Of a DNA stretch of 64,000 bases, positions 6,481 to 56,118 are shown piece after piece. Below the pieces are notes generated by a model, which did no database searches, was not told the DNA's origin, and saw only the letters and a program-made list of their open reading frames with translations. Position 1 is the stretch's first letter. Each line of letters begins with the position of its first letter. The stretch lies in the NCBI RefSeq assembly GCF_006345805.1, contig NC_043003.1, positions 744,001-808,000 on the forward strand, written 5' to 3'. A program made the translations under genes and the position numbers. The stretch is from Octopus sinensis. Taxonomy: Eukaryota.

Positions 6481-6873
<393 letters not shown>

Positions 6874-6925
6874 TCACATGCACACACACACACATACATG
6901 ACCTAATTGCTTCAAAGCCAACAGT

Positions 6926-6974
<49 letters not shown>

Positions 6975-7728
6975 TTGGTTCAATGGATTTTCTACGACTG
7001 GGATGCCTCTCCTGTCACCAACTCTTATAGTCACCTCTTACAACAGACATGGAGACGCATTCACAAAGACCATTGGAGATCTACACCAGTAAAAAATGGC
7101 ATTATTTGTGAAGAGAAAAGTTGTATGTTATTGTGAGAAAAGTCCTTGAAGTTTTGGACGAAGTTCTCTTTGGGTGGAACGGATGCAGTGAAGAACAACA
7201 GAAAATGGTAATGAATAAGTTTCTGTAGTAACACAGGACAGGAGTATTTGAGGAAGAGAATCAGTTTGAGGGGGGGGGTGAGAAAGGGCAAGGTTGAAAG
7301 ATTGATAGAGAAGAAGATTGTGATGGAAAAGGAGAGTTAAAATAGGAAGGAGAGGAAGGGTTTATTGGTGAGTTGGAAGGGAGAGTATTTTGTTTTCATT
7401 TTTGGGGAGCCCACTGACCCCAGAAAACAGCTTATCAATAGCATTGTCTTCACATCTGGCATTCTGTCATTCTGTCAGCTACAAGGAGAAGGGTTTCCAG
7501 TTGATCAGCTTCAAGGAAAAGCCGGCTCATGAAATTAATGGGAAGGAGGGTCAATTAATTAGTTTTAATTATAATTTTATTTAACATATTCCGCTCTCAG
7601 ATTCACACACTTATTGCAGCGGGCCTTCAATGTTTCTAAGCCCTGTAGAAGAACTCAGAAGCTTGGGCCTCCAACCAGGCTCTCACAATACACTTAAACC
7701 CGGGAACTTTTCAGCCCTTGCCTCGTAT

Positions 7729-8031
7729 ATCATCATCGTCGTTTAACGTTCATTTTCCATGCTAGCATGGGTTGGACGGGTCGACCGGGGTCTGGGAAGC
7801 CAGGAGGCTGCACCAGGCTCCAATCTGATCTGGCGAGGTTTCTACAGCTGGATGCCCTTCCTAACACCAACCACTCCGTGAGTGTAGTGGGTGCTTTTTA
7901 CGTGCCACCGGCACAGGTGCCAGGGGAGGCTGACAACGGCCACGATCGGTTGGTGTTTTTTATGTGCCACTGGCACAGAAGCCAGTCAAGGTGGTGCTGG
8001 CATCGGCCACATGTGGATGGTGCTTTTTACG
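7729..8031 (-). mobile_element. RTE LINE 3' UTR fragment with repeated gtgccggtggcac modules
   Basis: Similar to the reverse complement of 55800-56110. Confidence 0.75.
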
Positions 8032-8062
<31 letters not shown>

Positions 8063-8114
8063 TATTCGAGACAAAACCACTATTTTGCAAAACAAACAAG
8101 GAAAGACTTAATCA

Positions 8115-8149
<35 letters not shown>

Positions 8150-8165
8150 TGTGTGTGTGTACTCA

Positions 8166-8369
8166 TGAGAGGGTGCTGAAAAGTTCCTGGTTTGGGGTCA
8201 AAGAAAATAAAAAGAGGATCAGTTAATTAGGATTTTATTCAACATATTCCCCTCTTAGACTCACACACTTATTGCAGTGGTCCTTCAGTTTTGACTAAAC
8301 TATGCAAAAGAACTCCAACCAGGCCTTTGGTGAAACTCCTAAAGCCAGGAACTTCTCAGCACCACCTCA
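8166..8369. mobile_element. Mariner-like MITE
   Basis: TIRs tgagagggtgctgaaaagttcctgg / ccaggaacttctcagcaccacctca; sister copies at 9427-9646 and, partially, 7560-7727. Confidence 0.75.
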
Positions 8370-8376
8370 TATATAT

Positions 8377-8409
<33 letters not shown>

Positions 8410-8699
8410 TAAATATTCAATAATTATAAACATAATTATAATCAGGGGTCAGCTAATTGCTTCACCATGCACCGAATTTAGAAATAGAGTTAAAATGCTT
8501 TTTCTGCTACAATAGAGAAGGTTATATTAACGTACCGAACTACTTGGTAAAATTATTAATTATTAATCAATTAATTGATTAATGAATTAATTAATTTTAC
8601 TCTTTTATTATTATTATTGCAGCGTGCAATTGTTTTCGTTCCAGCACACGATCTCAGATCAAATCACTTGCTATGCGAGTACATCTCCGTAATTATTAT

Positions 8700-9179
8700 T
8701 ATTTATATATATATATATATACACATATACATATATATATACATATACATATATATATATACATATACATATATATATATACATATACATATATATATAC
8801 ATATACATATATATATACATATACATATATATATATATACATATACATATATATATACATATACATATATATATACATATACATATATATATATACATAT
8901 ACATATATATATATACATATACATATATATATATACATATACATATATATATATACATATACATATATATATATACATATACATTATATATATACATATA
9001 CATATATACATATACATATATACATATACTATATATATATATACATATACATATATATATACATATACATATATAATACATATACATATATATACATATA
9101 CATATATATATACATATACATATATATATACAATATATATAATACATATATATATACATATACATATATATATATATAC

Positions 9180-9225
<46 letters not shown>

Positions 9226-9364
9226 CACATATACATATACATATATAATATATCATCATCATCATCATCATCGTTTAACATGATGATGATGATGATGATA
9301 TACTATATAATACTATCATATATATATACATATACATATATATATACATATCATATATATATAC

Positions 9365-9418
<54 letters not shown>

Positions 9419-9420
9419 TA
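8700..9420. repeat. Long (TA)n/(TACATA)n compound microsatellite
   Basis: Directly visible. Confidence 0.95.
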
Positions 9421-9426
9421 CACACA

Positions 9427-9646
9427 CAAGGGTGGTGCTGAAAAGTTTTGGGTTTTAGGTAAAAGAAAATAGAGGAGGATCAGTTAATTATGATTTTACT
9501 GACCCTATTCCTCTCTCAGATTCACATACTTATTGCAGTGGCCCTTCAGTTTTTCCTAAGCCCTGTAAAAGAACTCAGAACGCTGGGCCTCCAGCCAGGC
9601 GTTTTGCGATACTTTTAAAGCTACCAACTTTTCAGCACCCCCCTTG
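9427..9646. mobile_element. Mariner-like MITE, same family as 8166-8369
   Basis: Termini caagggtggtgctgaaaagtt / aacttttcagcaccccccttg; colinear interior. Confidence 0.75.
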
Positions 9647-9658
9647 CATACATATGTG

Positions 9659-9698
<40 letters not shown>

Positions 9699-9882
9699 TG
9701 TTCCACCATCACTACTAAACAACTGGCGTCAGTTTGTTTATGTCCCTGTAACTGAGTGGTTCAACAAAAGATATGAATAGAATAAGCACCAGACTTTAAA
9801 ATAAGTCCTGGAATCAATTTGTTTGATGAAAACTCCTTCAAAGCAGTGCTCCAGCATGGCTCCTGTCCAACGAGTAAAAGAA

Positions 9883-9914
<32 letters not shown>

Positions 9915-10386
9915 ACAAGGACCATGCTTATATACAGATAGTGGACCGTGAGCTAATAGCTTGCATGTTCTCATTGAATACAGAGGTAAACAATTTCATG
10001 GTAAAAAACATGTGGCTACACATGGCGTATGCACACATGTGGGCACCAACATGCACTGACATGCAAATGTATACAAAGCCAACATGTTCAGCCTTGCTTT
10101 CTTCCTCCCTCTCCTGGTCACTTTTATTCTCTCTCTCCCTCCCCCTCTTTCTCCCTTTTTCTCTCTCTCCACCTCCAGCGCACCCCTTGCTCTGTTTTAC
10201 CTTCTCTTCCTTTCAGCCTCAGTATATATATATAATGGAGAAATTGCACGAAATGTATAAATGGATGATGAGTAAAGCGCCGGTACAGTTTCGATTCCCT
10301 GTTGTTATCCGTAGATTTATTGCAGGGACTTCGAAGTGGAGGTTGGGGTAACAGTATTAATAAAATAGGAGATGGAATGTGTAATA

Positions 10387-10453
10387 GACTTTATTGGGTA
10401 CAACACATGTTTCTACCTGTTCTGGGTCTCTTCAGGTACATCAATAAAAAGTC
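10387..10453 (-). ncRNA. Minimal type I hammerhead ribozyme-like motif (Penelope-like element remnant)
   Basis: Minus strand: ttattg-a-tgtac CTGAAGA gacc-cagaaca-ggta GAAAC atgt GTT gtac-c-caataa; extended stem I; one mismatch at the base of stem II; module 10234-10517 is flanked by (TA)n. Confidence 0.65.
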
Positions 10454-10511
10454 TCGCTAGAGATTTTCTGATTCGGTTTTACGTACCGCTATATGTCCAT
10501 CAACTTATATG

Positions 10512-10601
<90 letters not shown>

Positions 10602-11147
10602 ATACATATATTTTTATAAAAGTACTTTCTATAGTATTTCCAAAGTGCAAATCCCAAGTTAGGCGAACAGATTGTAAAATAAGTTATTTATAATTATATA
10701 TACACACACACACACACATATATGTAATACATATACGCACATGCATATCTTTCTCTCAAATATATATATATATACATACACACACAAATATAGATATAAT
10801 TCCTTCAAGAAATCCCGGATAAATTTCCTACACGCAGATATGTCTGCATAAACAAAAGCTCTCAACTCGAGTTGGCAATGGTGTCTGATTCCTGATATGA
10901 ATGGCTCTGCCAGGTGGTGCTATTAAGTTAGACATGGCCAGGGTCAATGCTGGCCGAAGCCTATCAAAGTATCAAAGTATCCATATGTGCACATAGATAC
11001 ATCACTTATATGCACACATACATACGCATTATATATATATAATGTATGTATGTATGTACAAGGACATAAACATATATAGACACACATATATAAAGATATA
11101 TACACACACACATATATAAACATACTCACACACATATACATACATAG

Positions 11148-11515
11148 TCGTGGCCAATGCCAGTGCCATCTGACTGGCACTCATAGCGGTTGCATGTAAA
11201 AAGCACCACCTGACTGTTGGGCCTCATGGTGGCAGTGACCAAGACCTTTGGCAATATACTGTGCTCGTGTTGACCTGTCAAGCCAAGTGATACCGTGGCC
11301 GATGCCAGTGTTAGGTCAATGGCACCTGTGCCAGTGGCATGTAAAAAGCACCCACTACACCCTCGAAGTGGTTGGCATCAGGAAGGGCACCCAGCCATAG
11401 AAACCTTGCCAAAACAGATTGGAACCTGATGCAGCCACCTGGCTTACAAGTTTCCAGTCAAACCGTCCAACCCATGCCAACATGGAAAGCTAAATGTGAA
11501 ATGACGGGTGATGAT
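11148..11515 (+). mobile_element. Diverged RTE LINE 3' UTR fragment
   Basis: gtgccagtggcatgtaaaaagcacccactacac...ccaacccatgccaacatggaaagc. Confidence 0.7.
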
Positions 11516-11651
11516 ACTCACACACAGAGAGAGGAATAAACGATGAAGGCTCATCGAATAAAACAAACCACCAACACATAATCATAAAAGCCATTAATAC
11601 GAGACAAACAGAACAAGGAGTGAAACACGAGCTACGACAATAATATTATCA

Positions 11652-11705
<54 letters not shown>

Positions 11706-14194
11706 CTCTTTCCTCTTGTTTCCTGTCTTGTGCCCCCAACAACCAAACAGACAACAATAGCCCATAACTCAGCCTCTTTCGACCTCATCACATTCTTCAC
11801 ATCTTCATGCAACTGCATAGTTGACTTCCTCCTTGCTGTTATGTCTAGTGTAATCATTCTCACAGCCTCTCCTCCCTCCCTCCCTCCCTCTCTCTCTCTC
11901 TCTGAGAACCAAACAGATAATGGCAGCCAAAGCCGCTGCTTCTTTCTTCTTTCTTCTTTCTTCTTCTTCTTCTTCTTCTTCCTCCAGTGCTGCTATTTAA
12001 CCAGCCGTCACTGCTGCTAGGTTGTGCAGATGTGTATGCACTTCAATGCAACTTTTCTATCTCTCCTTCTGCAACAAACGCATCTCCCTTTCTCTCTCCA
12101 TCACAATTGCTCTCCATTTCTCTCTCTCTCTGCTGATATTTCCCTCCTTCCCTCTCACTCATTCTTGTCTTTCTCACTTTCTCTTTCTCTCTCTAGCTTT
12201 TTAGTTTTCTTTCTCCCCCTCTCTCTCTCACTTTCCCCCTAACACTTTCCTTCTCTCTCCCTCTCTCATTCTCTCTTTCCTTCACTTCTCCATTTCCCTC
12301 CCTCCCTCTCTCCTCATCACTTATTCTTCCAAAATATTTCCTTTCTTAATCATTCTTTCCCCCCCCCACCACCACCACACCATTTTTACTCCCTCCCTCC
12401 CTCATATTTCTCTCTTAATCTCTCTTAATTCTTTCCTTTTTTTCTTTATGCTCTGCTACTACCATCCACTCCCCCCCACCTCGCCCTCCCCACTCTCTCC
12501 CACTCTCCCTCTCTCCGCACTCAATCCTCCTCTCCTGTGCTGCTGGCTTCAAATATTCCATTCGGCAAACTACTTGTTCGATCCAGCGAACTGCTTGCTT
12601 CTCACCTCCATTCCTCACTGCAAACATTCCAACTGATGACGACGACGACGATCAGGATGTTGTTGATGATGATGCTGATGATGATGCTGATGATGGTCGA
12701 TTGTGTCGATATTCACGATGATGATGATGATGTTTATTTTGATGACAACGATGACGACGATGATGATGATGACTGTGATGATGGTTGATGACATTAATGA
12801 TGACGATGATGATGGTGGTGGTGGTAATGGTGAGGATGGTAATGATGATGATGATGACTATAATGATGACGATGATGATGATGATGCAGATGATGGTGGT
12901 GATGAGTAGTTTCATGTCAGTAGTGGTTGTGTTAGCGAGTGCTTTAAAGATGGTGGAGAGTGGACTTACATTGTTGCTCCTGTTGTTGTTGTTTAACCCC
13001 AGGCCGGACTTGACTGAACAAACCTATGATCATAAGACATTCTCACCATGACCATCAACACATTCATAGTAGAAATATACCTTGGACTACATCATCCAAT
13101 ATCTTCCTTTCTTTTCTCAAGACAATAAAGTAAGATTTGAGGGATATTGAGCTGTTATTTCTAGCGGGTGCAGTAACTACATTAGATACAGCTTGGTATC
13201 TTGTTGTTCAGTATCGTTTTTGTTTAGCCCTAGGTCATCCCTGATCAAGCAGGTCTATGATCCACCAGCTTTAACCATTACAACTCTTCTTGAGTTATCT
13301 AAGACTACTTTGTGTATCCTTCCTATTTTAAAGGAAAAACAGTGGAAGGAGGTGTCATTTGAGGATGATTTGGCTGCTATTTCTCGGTTGATTGACCACA
13401 TTGAAGCAACCAGTTATTTACAGTGCTGGCTAATTATGATGGCGGTTTGGCTGCTATTTCTAGCTGGTGAGGCAACCACATTGAAGCAACCAGTTATTCA
13501 TAGTGCTGGCTGGCTTCGATAGTGATTTGATGGTGAATTGTCTGCTATTTCTAGTTGATCAAGTCACCACATTGATGGTGATGTTAATGGTATACATAAC
13601 GATATCTTTATTATTAGCAATGGTGATGCTGCTGTCGATGATTACGGGGGGGGGTGTCAACGTTGTTGGTGACAACGGCCAGAATGGTAGAATTATTAAT
13701 GAAGGACACAACAGTAACGCTGCTGCTGCTGCTATCTCGTAGTGTTACTATTGGTGACTATGAGAATGGTGGTGGCATTTCTGCTCATGCCAAATATTCA
13801 TTGGTAGCAATGGTAGTGATGACAATGGCAGTGTTGATAACAGACATGCCACCCGGGGGGGGGGGATGATTATAATAATGTTGGTGATAGAATCAATGTA
13901 TACAGATACACAACAGCAGCAGCAGCAGTTTGTATTTTTTTGTTTGTTTGTCTTTTTAGGAGAGAGTCTCTTACAAGATGGTGACGAATCGCATAAACGC
14001 CATCAGTGGCAAGAAAGAATAGGAATGTGTGGTGTTCATACATTTCTATATCAATCCATTTGGCAGAATAATGGAAAATTGGTTCCAACTGTGGCCATGC
14101 TGGGGTACCACCTTGAAGGGCTTTAGTTAAATTGACCACAGAACTTAATGTTCTTTTTTTTCTATTAGATGTCTTATTTATTCAATTCTTTGAC

Positions 14195-18938: not shown

Positions 18939-19307
18939 GGTCACAGACTGATGGTCACAAACAGATTGTCATAGACTTATGGACACAAACCAATGGTCAC
19001 AAACTAATGGACACAGACTGAGGGACACAGACTGAGGGACACAAACCGATGGTCACAGACTGATGGACACAAACTAATGGACACAGACTGAGGGACACAG
19101 ACTGATGGTCACAGACTGATGGTCATAGACTTATGGACACAAACCGAAGGTCACAGACCGATGGACACAAACTGATGGACACAAACTGACAGACACAGAC
19201 TGATGGACACAAACCGATGGTCATAGACTGATGGACACAAACTGACGGTTGCAGACTGATGGTCATAGACTTATGGACACAAACCGATGGTCACAGACTG
19301 ATGGACA
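18939..19307. repeat. 14-bp minisatellite (consensus about gacacagactgatg), roughly 26 diverged units
   Basis: Directly visible tandem units with t/a and g/a variants. Confidence 0.9.
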
Positions 19308-42510: not shown

Positions 42511-42736
42511 CAGAGGTTCCCAACAGGGGATCCACATGAGCTTTGGTGGGAGGAAGGCCAGATAGATTATACCTCGACAATAAACAAAATATGTTAACAA
42601 TTTGTCTATACAATTCTTGATAATATTTAATTATAAAAATATAAGATTTTTTAAACATAGCACGGCTCTGAGGGTCCATCTGAGTAGAACAGGAATCAAA
42701 GGGGCCTATAGGTTAAAAAATGGTGGAAAACCATTG
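42511..42736. mobile_element. hAT-like MITE
   Basis: Termini cagaggttcccaac / gtggaaaaccattg; degenerate 8-bp flanks ctctagcc / ttctaact. Confidence 0.6.
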
Positions 42737-42760: not shown

Positions 42761-45700
42761 TTAACCCATTGCCTGTCACGAGCCCCATTTGGGGATCTGC
42801 TAAAAAAAAGTCTCACTTCCGGCTGTTCGTTGTATTTAAAGTGAATTGCTTATGGACATTGCATTTGCAGAGGTGGGCTTAACAATATTTAGTCGTTAAA
42901 GTCTGTCCTTATTGGCTCTGGTTAATTCTAGAGGACATTTTATGTCATAAATCGCCATTTGTGAACTACAAAAATATTGACTGTTCTGAAAACGTATTTT
43001 GTTTTGTTTTTGCATTTCCCATTTATATCATTCGTTGATATTTCATTCACCTTCGCATTTCCCATTTATATCATTCGTTGATATTTCATTCACCTTCGCA
43101 TTTCCCATTTATATCATTCGTTGATATTTCATTCACCTTCGCATTTCCCATTTATATCATTCGTTGATATTTCATTCACCTTCGCATTTCCCATTTATAT
43201 CATTCGTTGATATTTCATTCACCTTCGCATTTCCCATTTATATCATTCGTTGATATTTCATTCACCTTCGCATTTCCCATTTATATCATTCGTTGATATT
43301 TCATTCACCTTCGCATTTCCCATTTATATCATTCGTTGATATTTCATTCACCTTCGCATTTCCCATTTATATCATTCGTTGATATTTCATTCACCTTCGC
43401 ATTTCCCATTTATATCATTCGTTGATATTTCATTCACCTTCGCATTTCCCATTTATATCATTCGTTGATATTTCATTCACCTTCGCATTTCCCATTTATA
43501 TCATTCGTTGATATTTCATTCACCTTCGCATTTCCCATTTATATCATTCGTTGATATTTCATTCACCTTCGCATTTCCCATTTATATCATTCGTGATATT
43601 TCATTCACCTTCGCATTTCCCATTTATATCATTCGTTGATATTTCATTCACCTTCGCATTTCCCATTATATCATTCGTTGATATTTCATTCACCTTCGCA
43701 TTTCCATTTATATCATTCGTTGATATTTCATTCACCTTCGCATTTCCCATTTATATCATTCGTTGATATTTCATTCACCTTCGCATTTCCCATTTATATC
43801 ATTCGTTGATATTTCATTCACCTTCGCATTTCCCATTTATATCATTCGTTGATATTTCATTCACCTTCGCATTTCCATTTATATCATTCGTTGATATTTC
43901 ATTCACCTTCGCATTTCCCATTTATATCATTCGTTGATATTTCATTCACCTTCGCATTTCCCATTTATATCATTCGTTGATATTTCATTCACCTTCGCAT
44001 TTCCCATTTATATCATTCGTTGATATTTCATTCACCTTCGCATTTCCCATTTATATCATTCGTTGATATTTCATTCACCTTCGCATTTCCCATTTATATC
44101 ATTCGTTGATATTTCATTCACCTTCGCATTTCCCATTTATATCATTCGTTGATATTTCATTCACCTTCGCATTTCCCATTTATATCATTCGTTGATATTT
44201 CATTCACCTTCGCATTTCCCATTTATATCATTCGTTGATATTTCATTCACCTTCGCATTTCCCATTTATATCATTCGTTGATATTTCATTCACCTTCGCA
44301 TTTCCCATTTATATCATTCGTTGATATTTCATTCACCTTCGCATTTCCCATTTATATCATTCGTTGATATTTCATTCACCTTCGCATTTCCCATTTATAT
44401 CATTCGTTGATATTTCATTCACCTTCGCATTTCCCATTTATATCATTCGTTGATATTTCATTCACCTTCGCATTTCCCATTTATATCATTCGTTGATATT
44501 TCATTCACCTTCGCATTTCCCATTTATATCATTCGTTGATATTTCATTCACCTTCGCATTTCCCATTTATATCATTCGTTGATATTTCATTCACCTTCGC
44601 ATTTCCCATTTATATCATTCGTTGATATTCATTCACCTTCGCATTTCCCATTTATATCATTCGTTGATATTTCATTCACCTTCGCATTTCCCATTTATAT
44701 CATTCGTTGATATTTCATTCACCTTCGCATTTCCCATTTATATCATTCGTTGATATTTCATTCACCTTCGCATTTCCATTTATATCATTCGTTGATATTT
44801 CATTCACCTTCGCATTTCCCATTTATATCATTCGTTGATATTTCATTCACCTTCGCATTTCCCATTTATATCATTCGTTGATATTTCATTCACCTTCGCA
44901 TTTCCATTTATATCATTCGTTGATATTTCATTCACCTTCGCATTTCCCATTTATATCATTCGTTGATATTTCATTCACCTTCGCATTTCCCATTTATCAT
45001 TCGTTGATATTTCATTCACCTTCGCATTTCCCATTTATATCATTCGTTGATATTTCATTCACCTTCGCATTTCCCATTTATATCATTCGTTGATATTTCA
45101 TTCACCTTCGCATTTCCCATTTATATCATTCGTTGATATTTCATTCACCTTCGCATTTCCCATTTATATCATTCGTTGATATTTCATTCACCTTCGCATT
45201 TCCCATTTATATCATTCGTTGATATTTCATTCACCTTCGCATTTCCCATTTATATCATTCGTTGATATTTCATTCACCTTCGCATTTCCCATTTATATCA
45301 TTCGTTGATATTTCATTCACCTTCGCATTTCCCATTATATCATTCGTTGATATTTCATTCACCTTCGCATTTCCCATTATATCATTCGTTGATATTTCAT
45401 TCACCTTCGCATTTCCCATTTATATCATTCGTTGATATTTCATTCACCTTCGCATTTCCCATTTATATCATTCGTTGATATTTCATTCACCTTCGCATTT
45501 CCCATTTATATCATTCGTTGATATTTCATTCACCTTCGCATTTCCCATTATATCATTCGTTGATATTTCATTCACCTTCGCATTTCCCATTTATATCATT
45601 CGTTGATATTTCATTCACCTTCGCATTTCCCATTTATATCATTCGTTGATATTTCATTCACCTTCGCATTTCCCATTTATATCATTCGTTGATATTTCAT

Positions 45701-46550
45701 TCACCTTCGCATTTCCCATTTATATCATTCGTTGATATTTCATTCACCTTCGCATTTCCCATTTATATCATTCGTTGATATTTCATTCACCTTCGCATTT
45801 CCCATTTATATCATTCGTTGATATTTCATTCACCTTCGCATTTCCCATTTATCATTCGTTGATATTTCATTCACCTTCGCATTTCCCATTTATATCATTC
45901 GTTGATATTTCATTCACCTTCGCATTTCCCATTTATATCATTCGTTGATATTTCATTCACCTTCGCATTTCCCATTTATATCATTCGTTGATATTTCATT
46001 CACCTTCGCATTTCCCATTATATCATTCGTTGATATTTCATTCACCTTCGCATTTCCCATTTATATCATTCGTTGATATTTCATTCACCTTCGCATTTCC
46101 CATTTATATCATTCGTTGATATTTCATTCACCTTCGCATTTCCCATTATATCATTCGTTGTTGATATTTCATTCACCTTCGCATTTCCCATTTATATCAT
46201 TCGTTGATATTTCATTCACCTTCGCATTTCCCATTTATATCATTCGTTGATATTTCATTCACCTTCGCATTTCCCATTTATATCATTCGTTGATATTTCA
46301 TTCACCTTCGCATTTGATTCTACAGTTTCAAAAAAAAAAAAAACTAAAATGTTTATTATTGCAATTGAATAGAAAAGGATAAATGTGTTTGTTTTTCAGT
46401 GATCCCCATTTGGGACTTTTCCAAAAATTTATAATTTCCAAAATAATTCATATATGAAGAAAATTTAAATACTATATATTATTCTAACTCCTAAGAAACC
46501 TGGCAAAGCCAAAAAATATGAGTAAAAAAATTTGACAGTTAACGGGTAAA
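42761..46550. mobile_element. Non-autonomous piggyBac-like element carrying a satellite array
   Basis: TTAA(42761)-cccattgcctgtca ... tgacagttaacggg-TAAA(46547), an 11/14 inverted match; subterminal inverted pair agccccatttggggatc (42781) / gatccccatttgggact (46401). Confidence 0.7.
43012..46315. repeat. 43-bp tandem satellite, about 77 copies
   Basis: Unit gcatttcccatttatatcattcgttgatatttcattcaccttc; differences are almost only 1-3 nt indels. Confidence 0.98.
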
Positions 46551-54084: not shown

Positions 54085-56118
54085 TGAGGTATCAAGCTGT
54101 TGGACCAGGTGATGAAGGTTACGGAGAGGGTCATAGCCCAACTAATTAGAGAGAGAGTTAGTTTAGATGAGATGCAGTTTGGGTTTGTGCCAGGGAAAAG
54201 TACTACTGATGCTATATTCCTGGTAAGGCAGCTGCAGGAGAAATACCTAGCCAAAGATAAGCCCCTGTACCTGGCTTTTGTTGACATGGAGAAAGCCTTC
54301 GACAGGGTCCCCCGATCCCTTATCTGGTGGGCAATGAGAAAACTAGGGATAGATGAATGGTTAGCGAGAGCTGTGCGGGCCATGTATAGGGACACTGCTA
54401 GTAGGGTGAGGGTTGGAAATGAGTACAGTGAAGAATTCCGGGTAGAGGTAGGGGTCCACCAAGGCTCAGTACTCAGCCCCCTCCTATTTATCATAGTCCT
54501 CCAGGCAATAACGGAGGAATTCAAGACAGGATGCCCTTGGGAGCTCCTCTATGCTGATGACCTTGCTCTAATTGCTGAGTCGCTATCAGAACTGGAGGAG
54601 AAGTTTCAGGTGTGGAAACAAGGATTAGAATCGAAGGGCCTCAGAGTCAATCTAGCTAAAACCAAAGTCGTAATCAGTAGGAAGGTAGACAAATCACAAA
54701 CACCTTCAGGTAGATGGCCCTGCTCGATCTGTAGAAAAGGTGTAGGTAGAAACTCTATAAGATGCACCAAGTGTAAGCTATGGACACATAAGAGATGCAG
54801 CAATGTCAAAGGAAGGCTAACTAGGAAGATGGTTTTTGTATGTGGCAGATGCTCAGGAACAATAAACACTGAAAATGCTCTGAGACCAACTTCCGTCACT
54901 TTCCAGGGAGAAACACTAGAAATAGTTGATAGTTTCCGTTACCTAGGTGACCAAGTCAGCAGCGGGGGTGGGTGTGCTGAAAGTGTAACTGCTAGAGTAA
55001 GAATAGCTTGGGCAAAGTTCAGAGAGCTCTTACCTCTGCTGGTGACAAAAGGCCTCTCGCACAGAGTGAAAGGCAGACTGTATGATGCGTGTGTACGAAC
55101 AGCCATGCTACATGGCAGTGAAACATGGGCCATGACTGCTGAGGATATGCGTAAGCTCGCTAGAAATGAAGCCAGTATGCTCCGGTGGATGTGTAATGCC
55201 GGTACTCACACTCGGCAGAGTGTAAGTACCTTGAGAGAAAAGCTGGACCTAAGAAGCATCAGTTGTGGTGTGCAAGAGAGACGTTTGCGCTGGTATGGTC
55301 ATGTGGCGAGAATGGATGAAGATAGTTGTGTGAAAAAGTGCCACACCCTAGCGGTTGAGGGAACCTGTGGAAGAGGCAGACCCAGGAAAACCTGGGACGA
55401 GGTGGTGAAGCACGACCTTCGAACTTTAGGTCTCACTGAGGAAATGACTAGAGACCGAGACCTCTGGAAGTGTGCTGTGCGCGAGAAGACCCGGCAGGAC
55501 AAGTGAGTCCACAACCCGTGGCCTTCTACATGGGATGGAGCCAGCCTACGTATGCATACCTTCCCTTCTTGGGACACAAAACTCTACTTGTGAAGACGTG
55601 TTGAGGCAAGTGAGGATCAGAATCGAAATCGATCAATGGAAATTGCGGATGTGCTACCAGTGCCGGTGGCATGTCGAAACTCTGCTTGTGAAGACCCATT
55701 GAGGCAAGTGAGGATCAGAATCGAAATCGATCAATGGAAATCGATCAATGGAAATTGCAGATGTGTTACCAGTGCCGGTGGCATGTAAGAGAACTTTCCG
55801 TTTCGCGACCGTTGCCAGCACCGCCCCGTTTCGTGTCCGTTGCCAGCCTCGCCTGGCCCTCGTGCCGGTGGCACATAAAAAGCACCATCCGTTCGTGGCC
55901 GTTTGCCAGCTCTGTCTGGCACCAGTGCGGGTGGCACGTAAAAAGCACCCACTACACTCACGGAGTGGTTGGCGTTAGGAAGGGCATCCAGCCGTAGAAA
56001 CACTGCCAGATTTGACTGGGCCTGATGAAGCCTTCTGGCTTCACAGACCCCAGTAGAACCGTCCAACCCATGCTAGCATGGAAAACGGACGCTAAATGAT
56101 GATGATGATGATGATGAT
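54085..56118 (+). mobile_element. 5'-truncated young RTE-clade LINE (RT, 3' UTR, (GAT)n tail) inserted into a family C SINE
   Basis: Starts mid-ORF at GIKLLDQVMK; SINE sequence stops at ttttgccaggtgag and resumes after the tail (gagttgatgggagcaacatgaaa). Confidence 0.92.
54100..55506 (+). CDS. Non-LTR retrotransposon reverse transcriptase (RTE clade), N-terminally truncated, with an internal PHD-type finger
   Basis: QFGFVPGKSTTDAIF, FVDMEKAFDRV, GVHQGSVLSPLLF, YADD (54550-54561), FRYLG, GRGRPRKTW; 468 codons without a stop. Confidence 0.92.
   Translation: MDQVMKVTERVIAQLIRERVSLDEMQFGFVPGKSTTDAIFLVRQLQEKYLAKDKPLYLAFVDMEKAFDRVPRSLIWWAMRKLGIDEWLARAVRAMYRDTASRVRVGNEYSEEFRVEVGVHQGSVLSPLLFIIVLQAITEEFKTGCPWELLYADDLALIAESLSELEEKFQVWKQGLESKGLRVNLAKTKVVISRKVDKSQTPSGRWPCSICRKGVGRNSIRCTKCKLWTHKRCSNVKGRLTRKMVFVCGRCSGTINTENALRPTSVTFQGETLEIVDSFRYLGDQVSSGGGCAESVTARVRIAWAKFRELLPLLVTKGLSHRVKGRLYDACVRTAMLHGSETWAMTAEDMRKLARNEASMLRWMCNAGTHTRQSVSTLREKLDLRSISCGVQERRLRWYGHVARMDEDSCVKKCHTLAVEGTCGRGRPRKTWDEVVKHDLRTLGLTEEMTRDRDLWKCAVREKTRQDK

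What the first reader, a model, noticed from the sequence alone, without database searches (positions are those of the whole stretch)
42761..46550. Homogeneous 43-bp satellite amplified inside a piggyBac-like element
Seen: about 77 nearly identical 43-bp units are bracketed by about 250 bp and about 230 bp of unique sequence. That sequence ends in TTAA-CCC...GGG-TAAA with 14-bp imperfect TIRs and an asymmetric subterminal inverted pair. The array begins and ends with gcattt, suggesting a single internal 43-mer bounded by this microhomology was amplified. Known: piggyBac elements have TTAA targets, CCC/GGG ends and subterminal repeats, and MITE-seeded satellites are described elsewhere (e.g. 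Xenopus Xmix/Xstir). Inference: the array is much younger than the diverged TIRs, so this may be a satellite being born in, or spread by, a DNA transposon.
Basis: partly seen in the sequence, partly recalled or inferred. Interest (0 to 1): 0.72.

Follow-up and report, generated by a model that had tools for sequence, protein, structure and literature searches.

The report
Minisatellite hopping between dead transposon copies
A 43-base piece from the middle of a small, old jumping element is repeated 77 times here and in only two other copies of that element found in this animal genome, and it likely spread between neighbouring copies by DNA repair copying (gene conversion) rather than by the element jumping, which would be a very early snapshot of a new repeat seeding itself.

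Summary
Observation confirmed. The array (43012-46315, 77 units) lies inside a ~528-bp non-coding TTAA/CCC MITE with hundreds of copies, about 7% from consensus, which normally carry one unit between 6-bp GCATTT repeats. Only three arrays were found (77, 41, 9 units), at unrelated insertion sites: two 0.74 Mb apart on C7, one on unplaced C9042. With nearby single-unit copies they form a mosaic group: 0% different around the unit, 4% in the arms, 10% at the ends (unlinked copies 12-13%), with conflicting splits (5/5/2) that a tree does not give. Short-read contigs show the junction about 180-fold in organism A, near zero in B (one run shares this insertion site), and roughly tenfold more in C. 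So the array is real, but it was probably not carried by transposition. Best reading (0.6): one microhomology duplication, seeded into pre-existing local copies by ectopic gene conversion, then expanded in place. Rival: independent expansions (0.22). MITE-born satellites and conversion-based spread are both known, and the scan noted a similar LINE case elsewhere in this genome (e1-10333045). New variant of a known kind; interest 0.45.

The parts
42761..42764 (.). Left TTAA target-site copy
   Evidence: Sequence; TTAA at both ends of the family consensus
42765..42778 (+). Left 14-bp TIR
   Evidence: family ends listed
42783..42797 (+). Left subterminal quasi-palindromic repeat
   Evidence: present in consensus
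42765..43011 (+). Left arm of the ~528-bp MITE; mosaic with copies at C7:1.53, 1.95, 2.91 Mb and C9042
43012..46315 (+). 77 x 43-bp minisatellite, opened and closed by the 6-bp GCATTT direct repeat; each unit holds a 6-bp inverted repeat with a 5-nt loop
   Evidence: junction contig about 180x single-copy depth in run X1; weak folding equal to the consensus unit
46316..46546 (+). Right arm of the MITE
46401..46415 (-). Right subterminal repeat, about 130 bp from the end
   Evidence: present in consensus
46533..46546 (-). Right 14-bp TIR
46547..46550 (.). Right target-site copy, decayed to TAAA
   Evidence: private to this copy among the local six

Best explanation
The array is a minisatellite made from the single internal 43-bp segment of an old piggyBac-like MITE, and it likely arose once by a slip or repair between the two 6-bp GCATTT repeats, was likely copied into other already-inserted copies within a few megabases by ectopic gene conversion, and likely grew to 77, 41 and 9 units in place by slippage or unequal exchange. 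Shown: the element family, one unit in ordinary copies, three arrays at unrelated sites, mosaic sharing of derived bases among local copies, a centre-to-end identity gradient, decayed ends, and large differences in junction load between organisms. Inferred: single origin, conversion as the carrier of the array (about 250 bp of homology on each side would template synthesis-dependent repair), direction of transfer, and that C9042 lies near the C7 group.
For: Full dimer hits in only 3 places (52 candidates, 40 scored). Flanks beyond TTAA unrelated, so no segmental duplication. The five best hits to the centre are C7:0.79, 1.53, 1.95, 2.91 Mb and C9042 at 96-100%, the next at 90%; two control families with high local identity have genome-wide best hits instead. 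Four core copies: 0 of 522 differences in the centre, 83 of 1917 in the arms, 62 of 612 at the ends, against 12.3%, 11.9%, 13.1% for unlinked pairs; 87-bp invariant block over the unit, p = 0.010. Splits 5/5/2; tree simulation gives mean 0.35, maximum 4 in 3000 runs on the two minor splits, observed 7. L096 shares its left arm with the window but has a private right arm; L091 shares 4 derived bases at its right end only with L095, 90 kb away. Terminal 18-nt substitutions 17 of 197 in the local six against 132 of 2489 elsewhere. Genome-wide, 31 pairs under 3 Mb apart share 0.0108 derived bases per bp against 0.0037; 0 of 2000 permutations reach it. Run X2 (organism B) bridges the left insertion junction with 0 differences but has junction depth only 1-2x single copy; run X3 (B) has a contig that crosses the identical unit and leaves it without a second unit, at 3.6x single-copy depth.
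Against: PHI-like test for clustering of compatible sites not significant (p = 0.20, 24 sites), so discrete tracts are not formally resolved. The unit was already identical at 3-4 loci in organism B, so identity among arrays does not by itself show transfer of the array. Conversion shows homogenisation of the copies, not directly of the array. The four core copies were partly picked for unit identity, which inflates the invariant-block test. Some close pairs are not homogenised (8.7 kb, 40 kb and 44 kb apart: 2-4 shared bases). C9042 is unplaced and shows no colinearity with C7:0.54-1.63 Mb. X2 junction contig has half the single-copy depth and X3 lists none, so the shared insertion rests on one run.
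Confidence: 0.6

Rival explanations
1. Independent expansions: local copies were first homogenised by conversion, and the shared derived unit then expanded separately at three loci because it is intrinsically prone to slip.
For: Organism B holds about 3.6 copies of the identical single unit without arrays; 3 of the 4 copies with this exact unit carry arrays, while L095 and L096, which lack one derived base, do not; the region has other arrays of 36, 61 and 85 bp.
Against: The 6-bp microhomology is ancestral in the family, yet 0 of 84 non-local copies have a tandem second unit; derived and consensus units fold identically as DNA (-7.2 and -9.0 kcal/mol for three units); three separate first duplications with the same register would be needed.
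Confidence: 0.22
2. Xmix/Xstir-type ride: a young array-bearing MITE subfamily hopped locally with a piggyBac transposase, gap repair at donor sites scrambling the copies.
For: Separate TTAA insertions with arrays inside intact-looking elements; many piggyBac transposase remnants, some with open frames of about 460-490 residues; local clustering also fits local hopping (recalled property of piggyBac); win, L091 and L096 share 2 derived bases in the first 44 bp.
Against: Ends are as decayed as in the old family and 3 of 4 core copies have mutated terminal bases or target copies; identity falls from centre to ends; no density excess shown: 3 copies in 1.086 Mb contiguous; insertion junction shared with a nearly array-free organism; no transposase element with these exact ends in 30 loci.
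Confidence: 0.12
3. Assembly or polishing artefact: one array was misplaced or stretched, and similar copies were overwritten during polishing.
For: Within-array variants are nearly all homopolymer indels, typical of long-read consensus error; run X1 may be the assembled sample; array lengths per locus were not checked with long reads.
Against: Junction contig at depth 9017 against 49.6 single copy (about 180 per haploid genome; 124 junctions assembled); the central segment has 5.0x depth in X1 and 3.6x in X3, an independent organism; window-specific variants have their own single-copy contigs; polishing would not favour physical neighbours.
Confidence: 0.04

Closest known systems
Xmix (T2-A1 MITE) with Xstir repeats, Xenopus (passages of PMC6004289 and PMC9659126; the original Hikosaka papers seen only as citations)
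   Same: TTAA-target MITE whose internal segment is amplified into a tandem repeat
   Different: Xmix has AGGRR ends (Kolobok-type), here CCC ends; Xstir is a large family described as amplified and transposed with its TIRs, here three arrays in decayed, mosaic copies
Rsp-like spreading into 1.688 clusters, Drosophila simulans clade (PMC7403614; abstract, outline, Discussion part 1 of 2)
   Same: A rare repeat colonises pre-existing homologous landing sites on one chromosome through repair; interlocus conversion proposed; strong differences among close species
   Different: Landing sites there are another satellite and the hybrid junction is new; here they are single dispersed 528-bp MITE copies and the unit is the element's own segment
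Non-allelic gene conversion among Alu and LTR copies (PMC8230782; passages)
   Same: Neighbouring transposon copies share non-diagnostic mutations, more so when close
   Different: Range cited there is about 10 kb; here 0.07-2.1 Mb in a sparse family, and the tract apparently carries a tandem array
Tetris / TIR-220, Drosophila virilis (PMC4079207; abstract and outline)
   Same: kb-size satellite-like arrays grown from repeats inside a non-autonomous DNA transposon
   Different: Foldback element with tandem repeats already in its TIRs; here one central unit, no pre-existing tandem
piggyBac transposase element L241 in the same genome
   Same: TTAA flanks and TIRs matching the MITE consensus at 12 of 14 (left) and 11 of 14 (right), with the same left/right asymmetry
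   Different: No internal similarity to the MITE; CAC rather than CCC ends; transposase frame broken; a relative, not the parent

Membership tests
piggyBac superfamily (non-autonomous) | TTAA target-site duplication | tested here: met
   TTAA at both ends of the consensus of 42 copies and in most of the 47 listed ends; empty orthologous site not seen
piggyBac superfamily (non-autonomous) | 12-19 bp TIRs starting CCC (feature recalled) | tested here: met
   14-bp TIRs, 12 of 14 in consensus; 9 of the 11 transposase loci with paired ends also start CC
piggyBac superfamily (non-autonomous) | Asymmetric subterminal inverted repeats (feature recalled) | tested here: met
   15-bp pair about 18 bp and 130 bp from the ends, in window and consensus
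piggyBac superfamily (non-autonomous) | Autonomous partner with the same ends encoding DDE_Tnp_1_7 | tested here: inconclusive
   1 of 30 PF13843 loci has related inward-facing ends (17 of 22 each); shuffled loci gave any such hit in 4 of 600; none has identical ends or internal homology; 30 of 117 matches examined
piggyBac superfamily (non-autonomous) | Mobilisation and precise excision by a piggyBac transposase | not testable with these tools
   Needs an excision assay
T2-MITE / Kolobok (Xmix type) | Terminal AGGRR or RR motif (PMC6004289) | tested here: not met
   Ends are CCC
MITE | Short, non-coding, TIR-bounded, high copy, uniform length | tested here: met
   528-bp consensus; at least 363-372 candidates; no ORF of 110 aa in the element
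Satellite DNA in the strict sense | Long, abundant arrays detached from the parent element | tested here: not met
   Three arrays of 0.4-3.3 kb, all inside the MITE; minisatellite scale in this genome. Organism C may differ, context unknown
Interlocus gene conversion | Mosaic, non-tree-like sharing among paralogues | tested here: met
   Splits 5/5/2 against simulated maximum 4 on minor splits; proximity effect 0 of 2000 permutations
Interlocus gene conversion | Discrete tracts with breakpoints | tested here: inconclusive
   Visible in L096 and L091/L095; PHI-like p = 0.20
Interlocus gene conversion | Non-reciprocal change at an orthologous locus between species or alleles | not testable with these tools
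   No relative genome held; short contigs cannot phase loci

The most novel reading that the evidence does not exclude
Dead MITE copies up to 2 Mb apart form a standing gene-conversion network, about a hundred times the range cited for Alu, and a newborn minisatellite is using it as its only dispersal route: caught at three loci in organism A, absent at the same homogenised loci in B, and amplified about tenfold further in C. The three organisms would be successive frames of satellite birth without transposition.
Probability: 0.4. Interest if true: 0.62.

Novelty: new variant of a known kind. Interest (0 to 1): 0.45.

Why it matters
How a new tandem repeat gets from its birthplace to a second and third locus is usually inferred after the fact from large families. 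Here the whole family is three arrays, the unamplified ancestral state survives in hundreds of sibling elements, and close organisms differ from about zero to over a thousand units, so transposition, conversion and independent expansion make different predictions that a few orthologous loci can settle. It also warns that divergence-based ages of MITE copies can be distorted by megabase-range conversion. No function for the host is suggested.

Tried and rejected
Segmental duplication: rejected, flanks unrelated. General local homogenisation of all repeats at this chromosome end: two families tested were simply young genome-wide; old families were not tested this way. Array-driven conversion as the sole cause: not needed, an array-free pair on C24 835 kb apart shares 19 derived bases in 421 with divergent ends. 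New secondary structure in the derived unit: none. Subtelomeric position: no telomere repeat tract in the first or last 10 kb of C7, so 'near the contig end' is all that is shown. Direct autonomous parent: not found in 30 of 117 PF13843 matches, nor among the 8 L241-type loci scanned for ends. Placing C9042 as a haplotig of C7:0.54-1.63 Mb: no colinearity. Host gene: no convincing ORF nearby except an RT remnant; introns not examined. No RNA holder listed. PHI-like test negative. Sequence look-up in earlier scan notes: nothing.

Full report
Observation. The window holds 77.1 copies of a 43-bp unit at 43012-46315. 63 of 77 units are identical and the 14 others differ only by small indels in short runs. 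The array opens and closes on GCATTT. It is flanked by 247 and 231 bp that end in TTAA-CCC and GGG-TAAA, with 14-bp TIRs (11 of 14) and an asymmetric subterminal pair. The genome is a 2.7-Gb animal assembly; 'likely octopus' comes from other scan notes and recall, and was not tested.

The element. Both arms hit hundreds of places (363 and 372 candidates, 40 scored each) and co-occur about 45 bp apart. From 47 near-full copies (26 partial rows under 430 bp were dropped; L095 was added back by hand), the 42 non-local ones give a 528-bp consensus with TTAA at both ends and 7.4% mean substitution. These copies were chosen as best hits, so the family is probably older than that figure. The consensus already has the GCATTT-unit-GCATTT arrangement and two of the three TIR mismatches. 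Of 84 non-local copies, 81 give one unit hit, 2 none, and 1 a second hit 1.2 kb away. One of 30 piggyBac transposase loci examined (of 117 matches) has related ends with the same asymmetry, but no internal homology. Ends are CCC, not the AGGRR of T2-MITEs (PMC6004289, passages). I file it as a piggyBac-like MITE; the parent was not found.

The arrays. A dimer query found full matches in three places only: the window, C7:1.53 Mb (41 units) and C9042 (9 units); 40 of 52 candidates were scored. All three lie inside the MITE, at the same register, with the same unit; a single-unit copy at C7:1.95 Mb has that unit too. Sequence outside the TTAA sites is unrelated.

Not a young transposing subfamily. 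The closest relatives of the window copy are physical neighbours at C7:1.44, 1.53, 1.95 and 2.91 Mb plus C9042; in the contiguous 1.086 Mb read (C7:544,001-1,630,000) all 3 family copies belong to this group. Two other families with high local identity proved young genome-wide. Among four core copies, pair differences are 0 of 522 in the centre, 83 of 1917 in the arms and 62 of 612 at the ends, against 12-13% throughout for unlinked pairs. The three possible splits are supported by 5, 5 and 2 sites, mostly rare in the family; a tree simulation with family site rates put at most 4 sites on the two minor splits in 3000 runs. L096 resembles the window in its left arm and is private in its right; L091 shares its right end with L095, 90 kb away. 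Terminal bases are as decayed as elsewhere (17 of 197 against 132 of 2489; the latter is lowered by BLAST end trimming). Against this reading: a PHI-like test was not significant (p = 0.20), the core four were partly chosen for unit identity, and three pairs under 50 kb apart elsewhere are not homogenised. Even so, 31 pairs under 3 Mb share three times more derived bases than expected (0 of 2000 permutations), and an array-free pair on C24 shows the same shared-middle, divergent-end pattern, so local conversion looks like a general feature of the family and does not need the array.

Reads. Four of 24 listed runs were laid on the left flank, left arm and first junction; all are short-read contigs and depths are rough. 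In X1 (organism A, possibly the assembled sample) the junction contig has depth 9017 against 49.6 for unique flank, about 180 junctions against 124 assembled, and the central segment has 5.0x depth, so array and homogenisation are in the raw data. In organism B the junction bins are 27-38 against 20.5 (X2) and 0-42 against 64 (X3, about 80% read). X3 has a contig that crosses the identical unit and leaves after GCATTT, at 3.6x depth, which I read as 3-4 homogenised single-unit loci. X2 bridges the left insertion junction with no difference, at half depth; X3 lists no such contig. In X8 (organism C) summed junction depth is 6746-12929 against 4.5, about 8-11 times the X1 load when scaled on the MITE arm; summed depths are not copy numbers, and where these arrays sit is unknown. 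Flanks show 0 differences over about 300 bp in all runs, so the order of A, B and C is not established, and gain in A+C cannot be told from loss in B. Per-locus array length and the right junction were not checked on reads.

Mechanism. Most likely (0.6): one duplication between the GCATTT repeats, transfer of a short array into already-inserted neighbours by homology-templated repair, then growth in place. Independent expansion of a previously homogenised unit remains open (0.22); transposition with gap repair is less likely (0.12); artefact is unlikely (0.04).

Literature. MITE-born repeats are known: Xstir and miDNA4 (PMC9659126, passages; PMC6004289, passages) and Tetris TIR-220 (PMC4079207, abstract and outline). 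Repair-mediated spread into homologous landing sites is proposed for Rsp-like (PMC7403614, abstract and first part of Discussion). Alu conversion is cited as acting within about 10 kb (PMC8230782, passages). A recent octopus repeat annotation has no 'satellite' or 'gene conversion' mention in its main text (PMC13282606, term passages); its supplements and repeat library were not read and may list this MITE. Seven full-text searches (listings only) showed no report of this element or of an array moving between MITE copies by conversion; subscription papers are not covered. An unreviewed scan note proposes the same route for a LINE-end repeat elsewhere in this genome (e1-10333045); I had stated my reading before seeing it and did not test that case.

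Verdict. Real, well-defined, new variant of a known kind. Interest 0.45.

Noticed in passing
window 42511-42736: Short element just left of the MITE with imperfect ~14-bp inverted ends and a 5-of-8 flanking repeat with central TA; looks like a hAT/Charlie-type MITE (label recalled); its middle is very high copy in reads.
   Followed up: no
window 54088-55506 (+): 472-aa open frame with RVT_1 (E 7e-30) and a weak PHD-like match below cut-off; likely an RTE-type LINE 3' part.
   Followed up: partly
G000:C7:1291344-1295038, 1607837-1609081, 1284717-1284968: Other homogeneous arrays in the same region: 85 bp x 43.6, 61 bp x 20.4, 36 bp x 7. Origin not examined.
   Followed up: no
G000:C7:1360577-1361350 (approx.): About four tandem 184-bp units matching a dispersed repeat at C7:1076402, 1246186 and 1394081 at 94-97%: another transposon piece tandemly amplified.
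   Followed up: no
L249 and L250 (C24, 835 kb apart): Array-free MITE pair sharing 19 derived bases in 421 with divergent right ends; a second candidate conversion pair.
   Followed up: partly
L241:825-3306 and L283: 2.48-kb piggyBac elements with broken transposase frames and CAC-starting TIRs related to this MITE's ends.
   Followed up: partly
L095 (C7:1438691-1439139): 5'-truncated MITE copy with a 27-bp insertion just before the unit, partly converted.
   Followed up: partly
window 18939-19307: Degenerate 14-bp-based minisatellite, about 370 bp.
   Followed up: no
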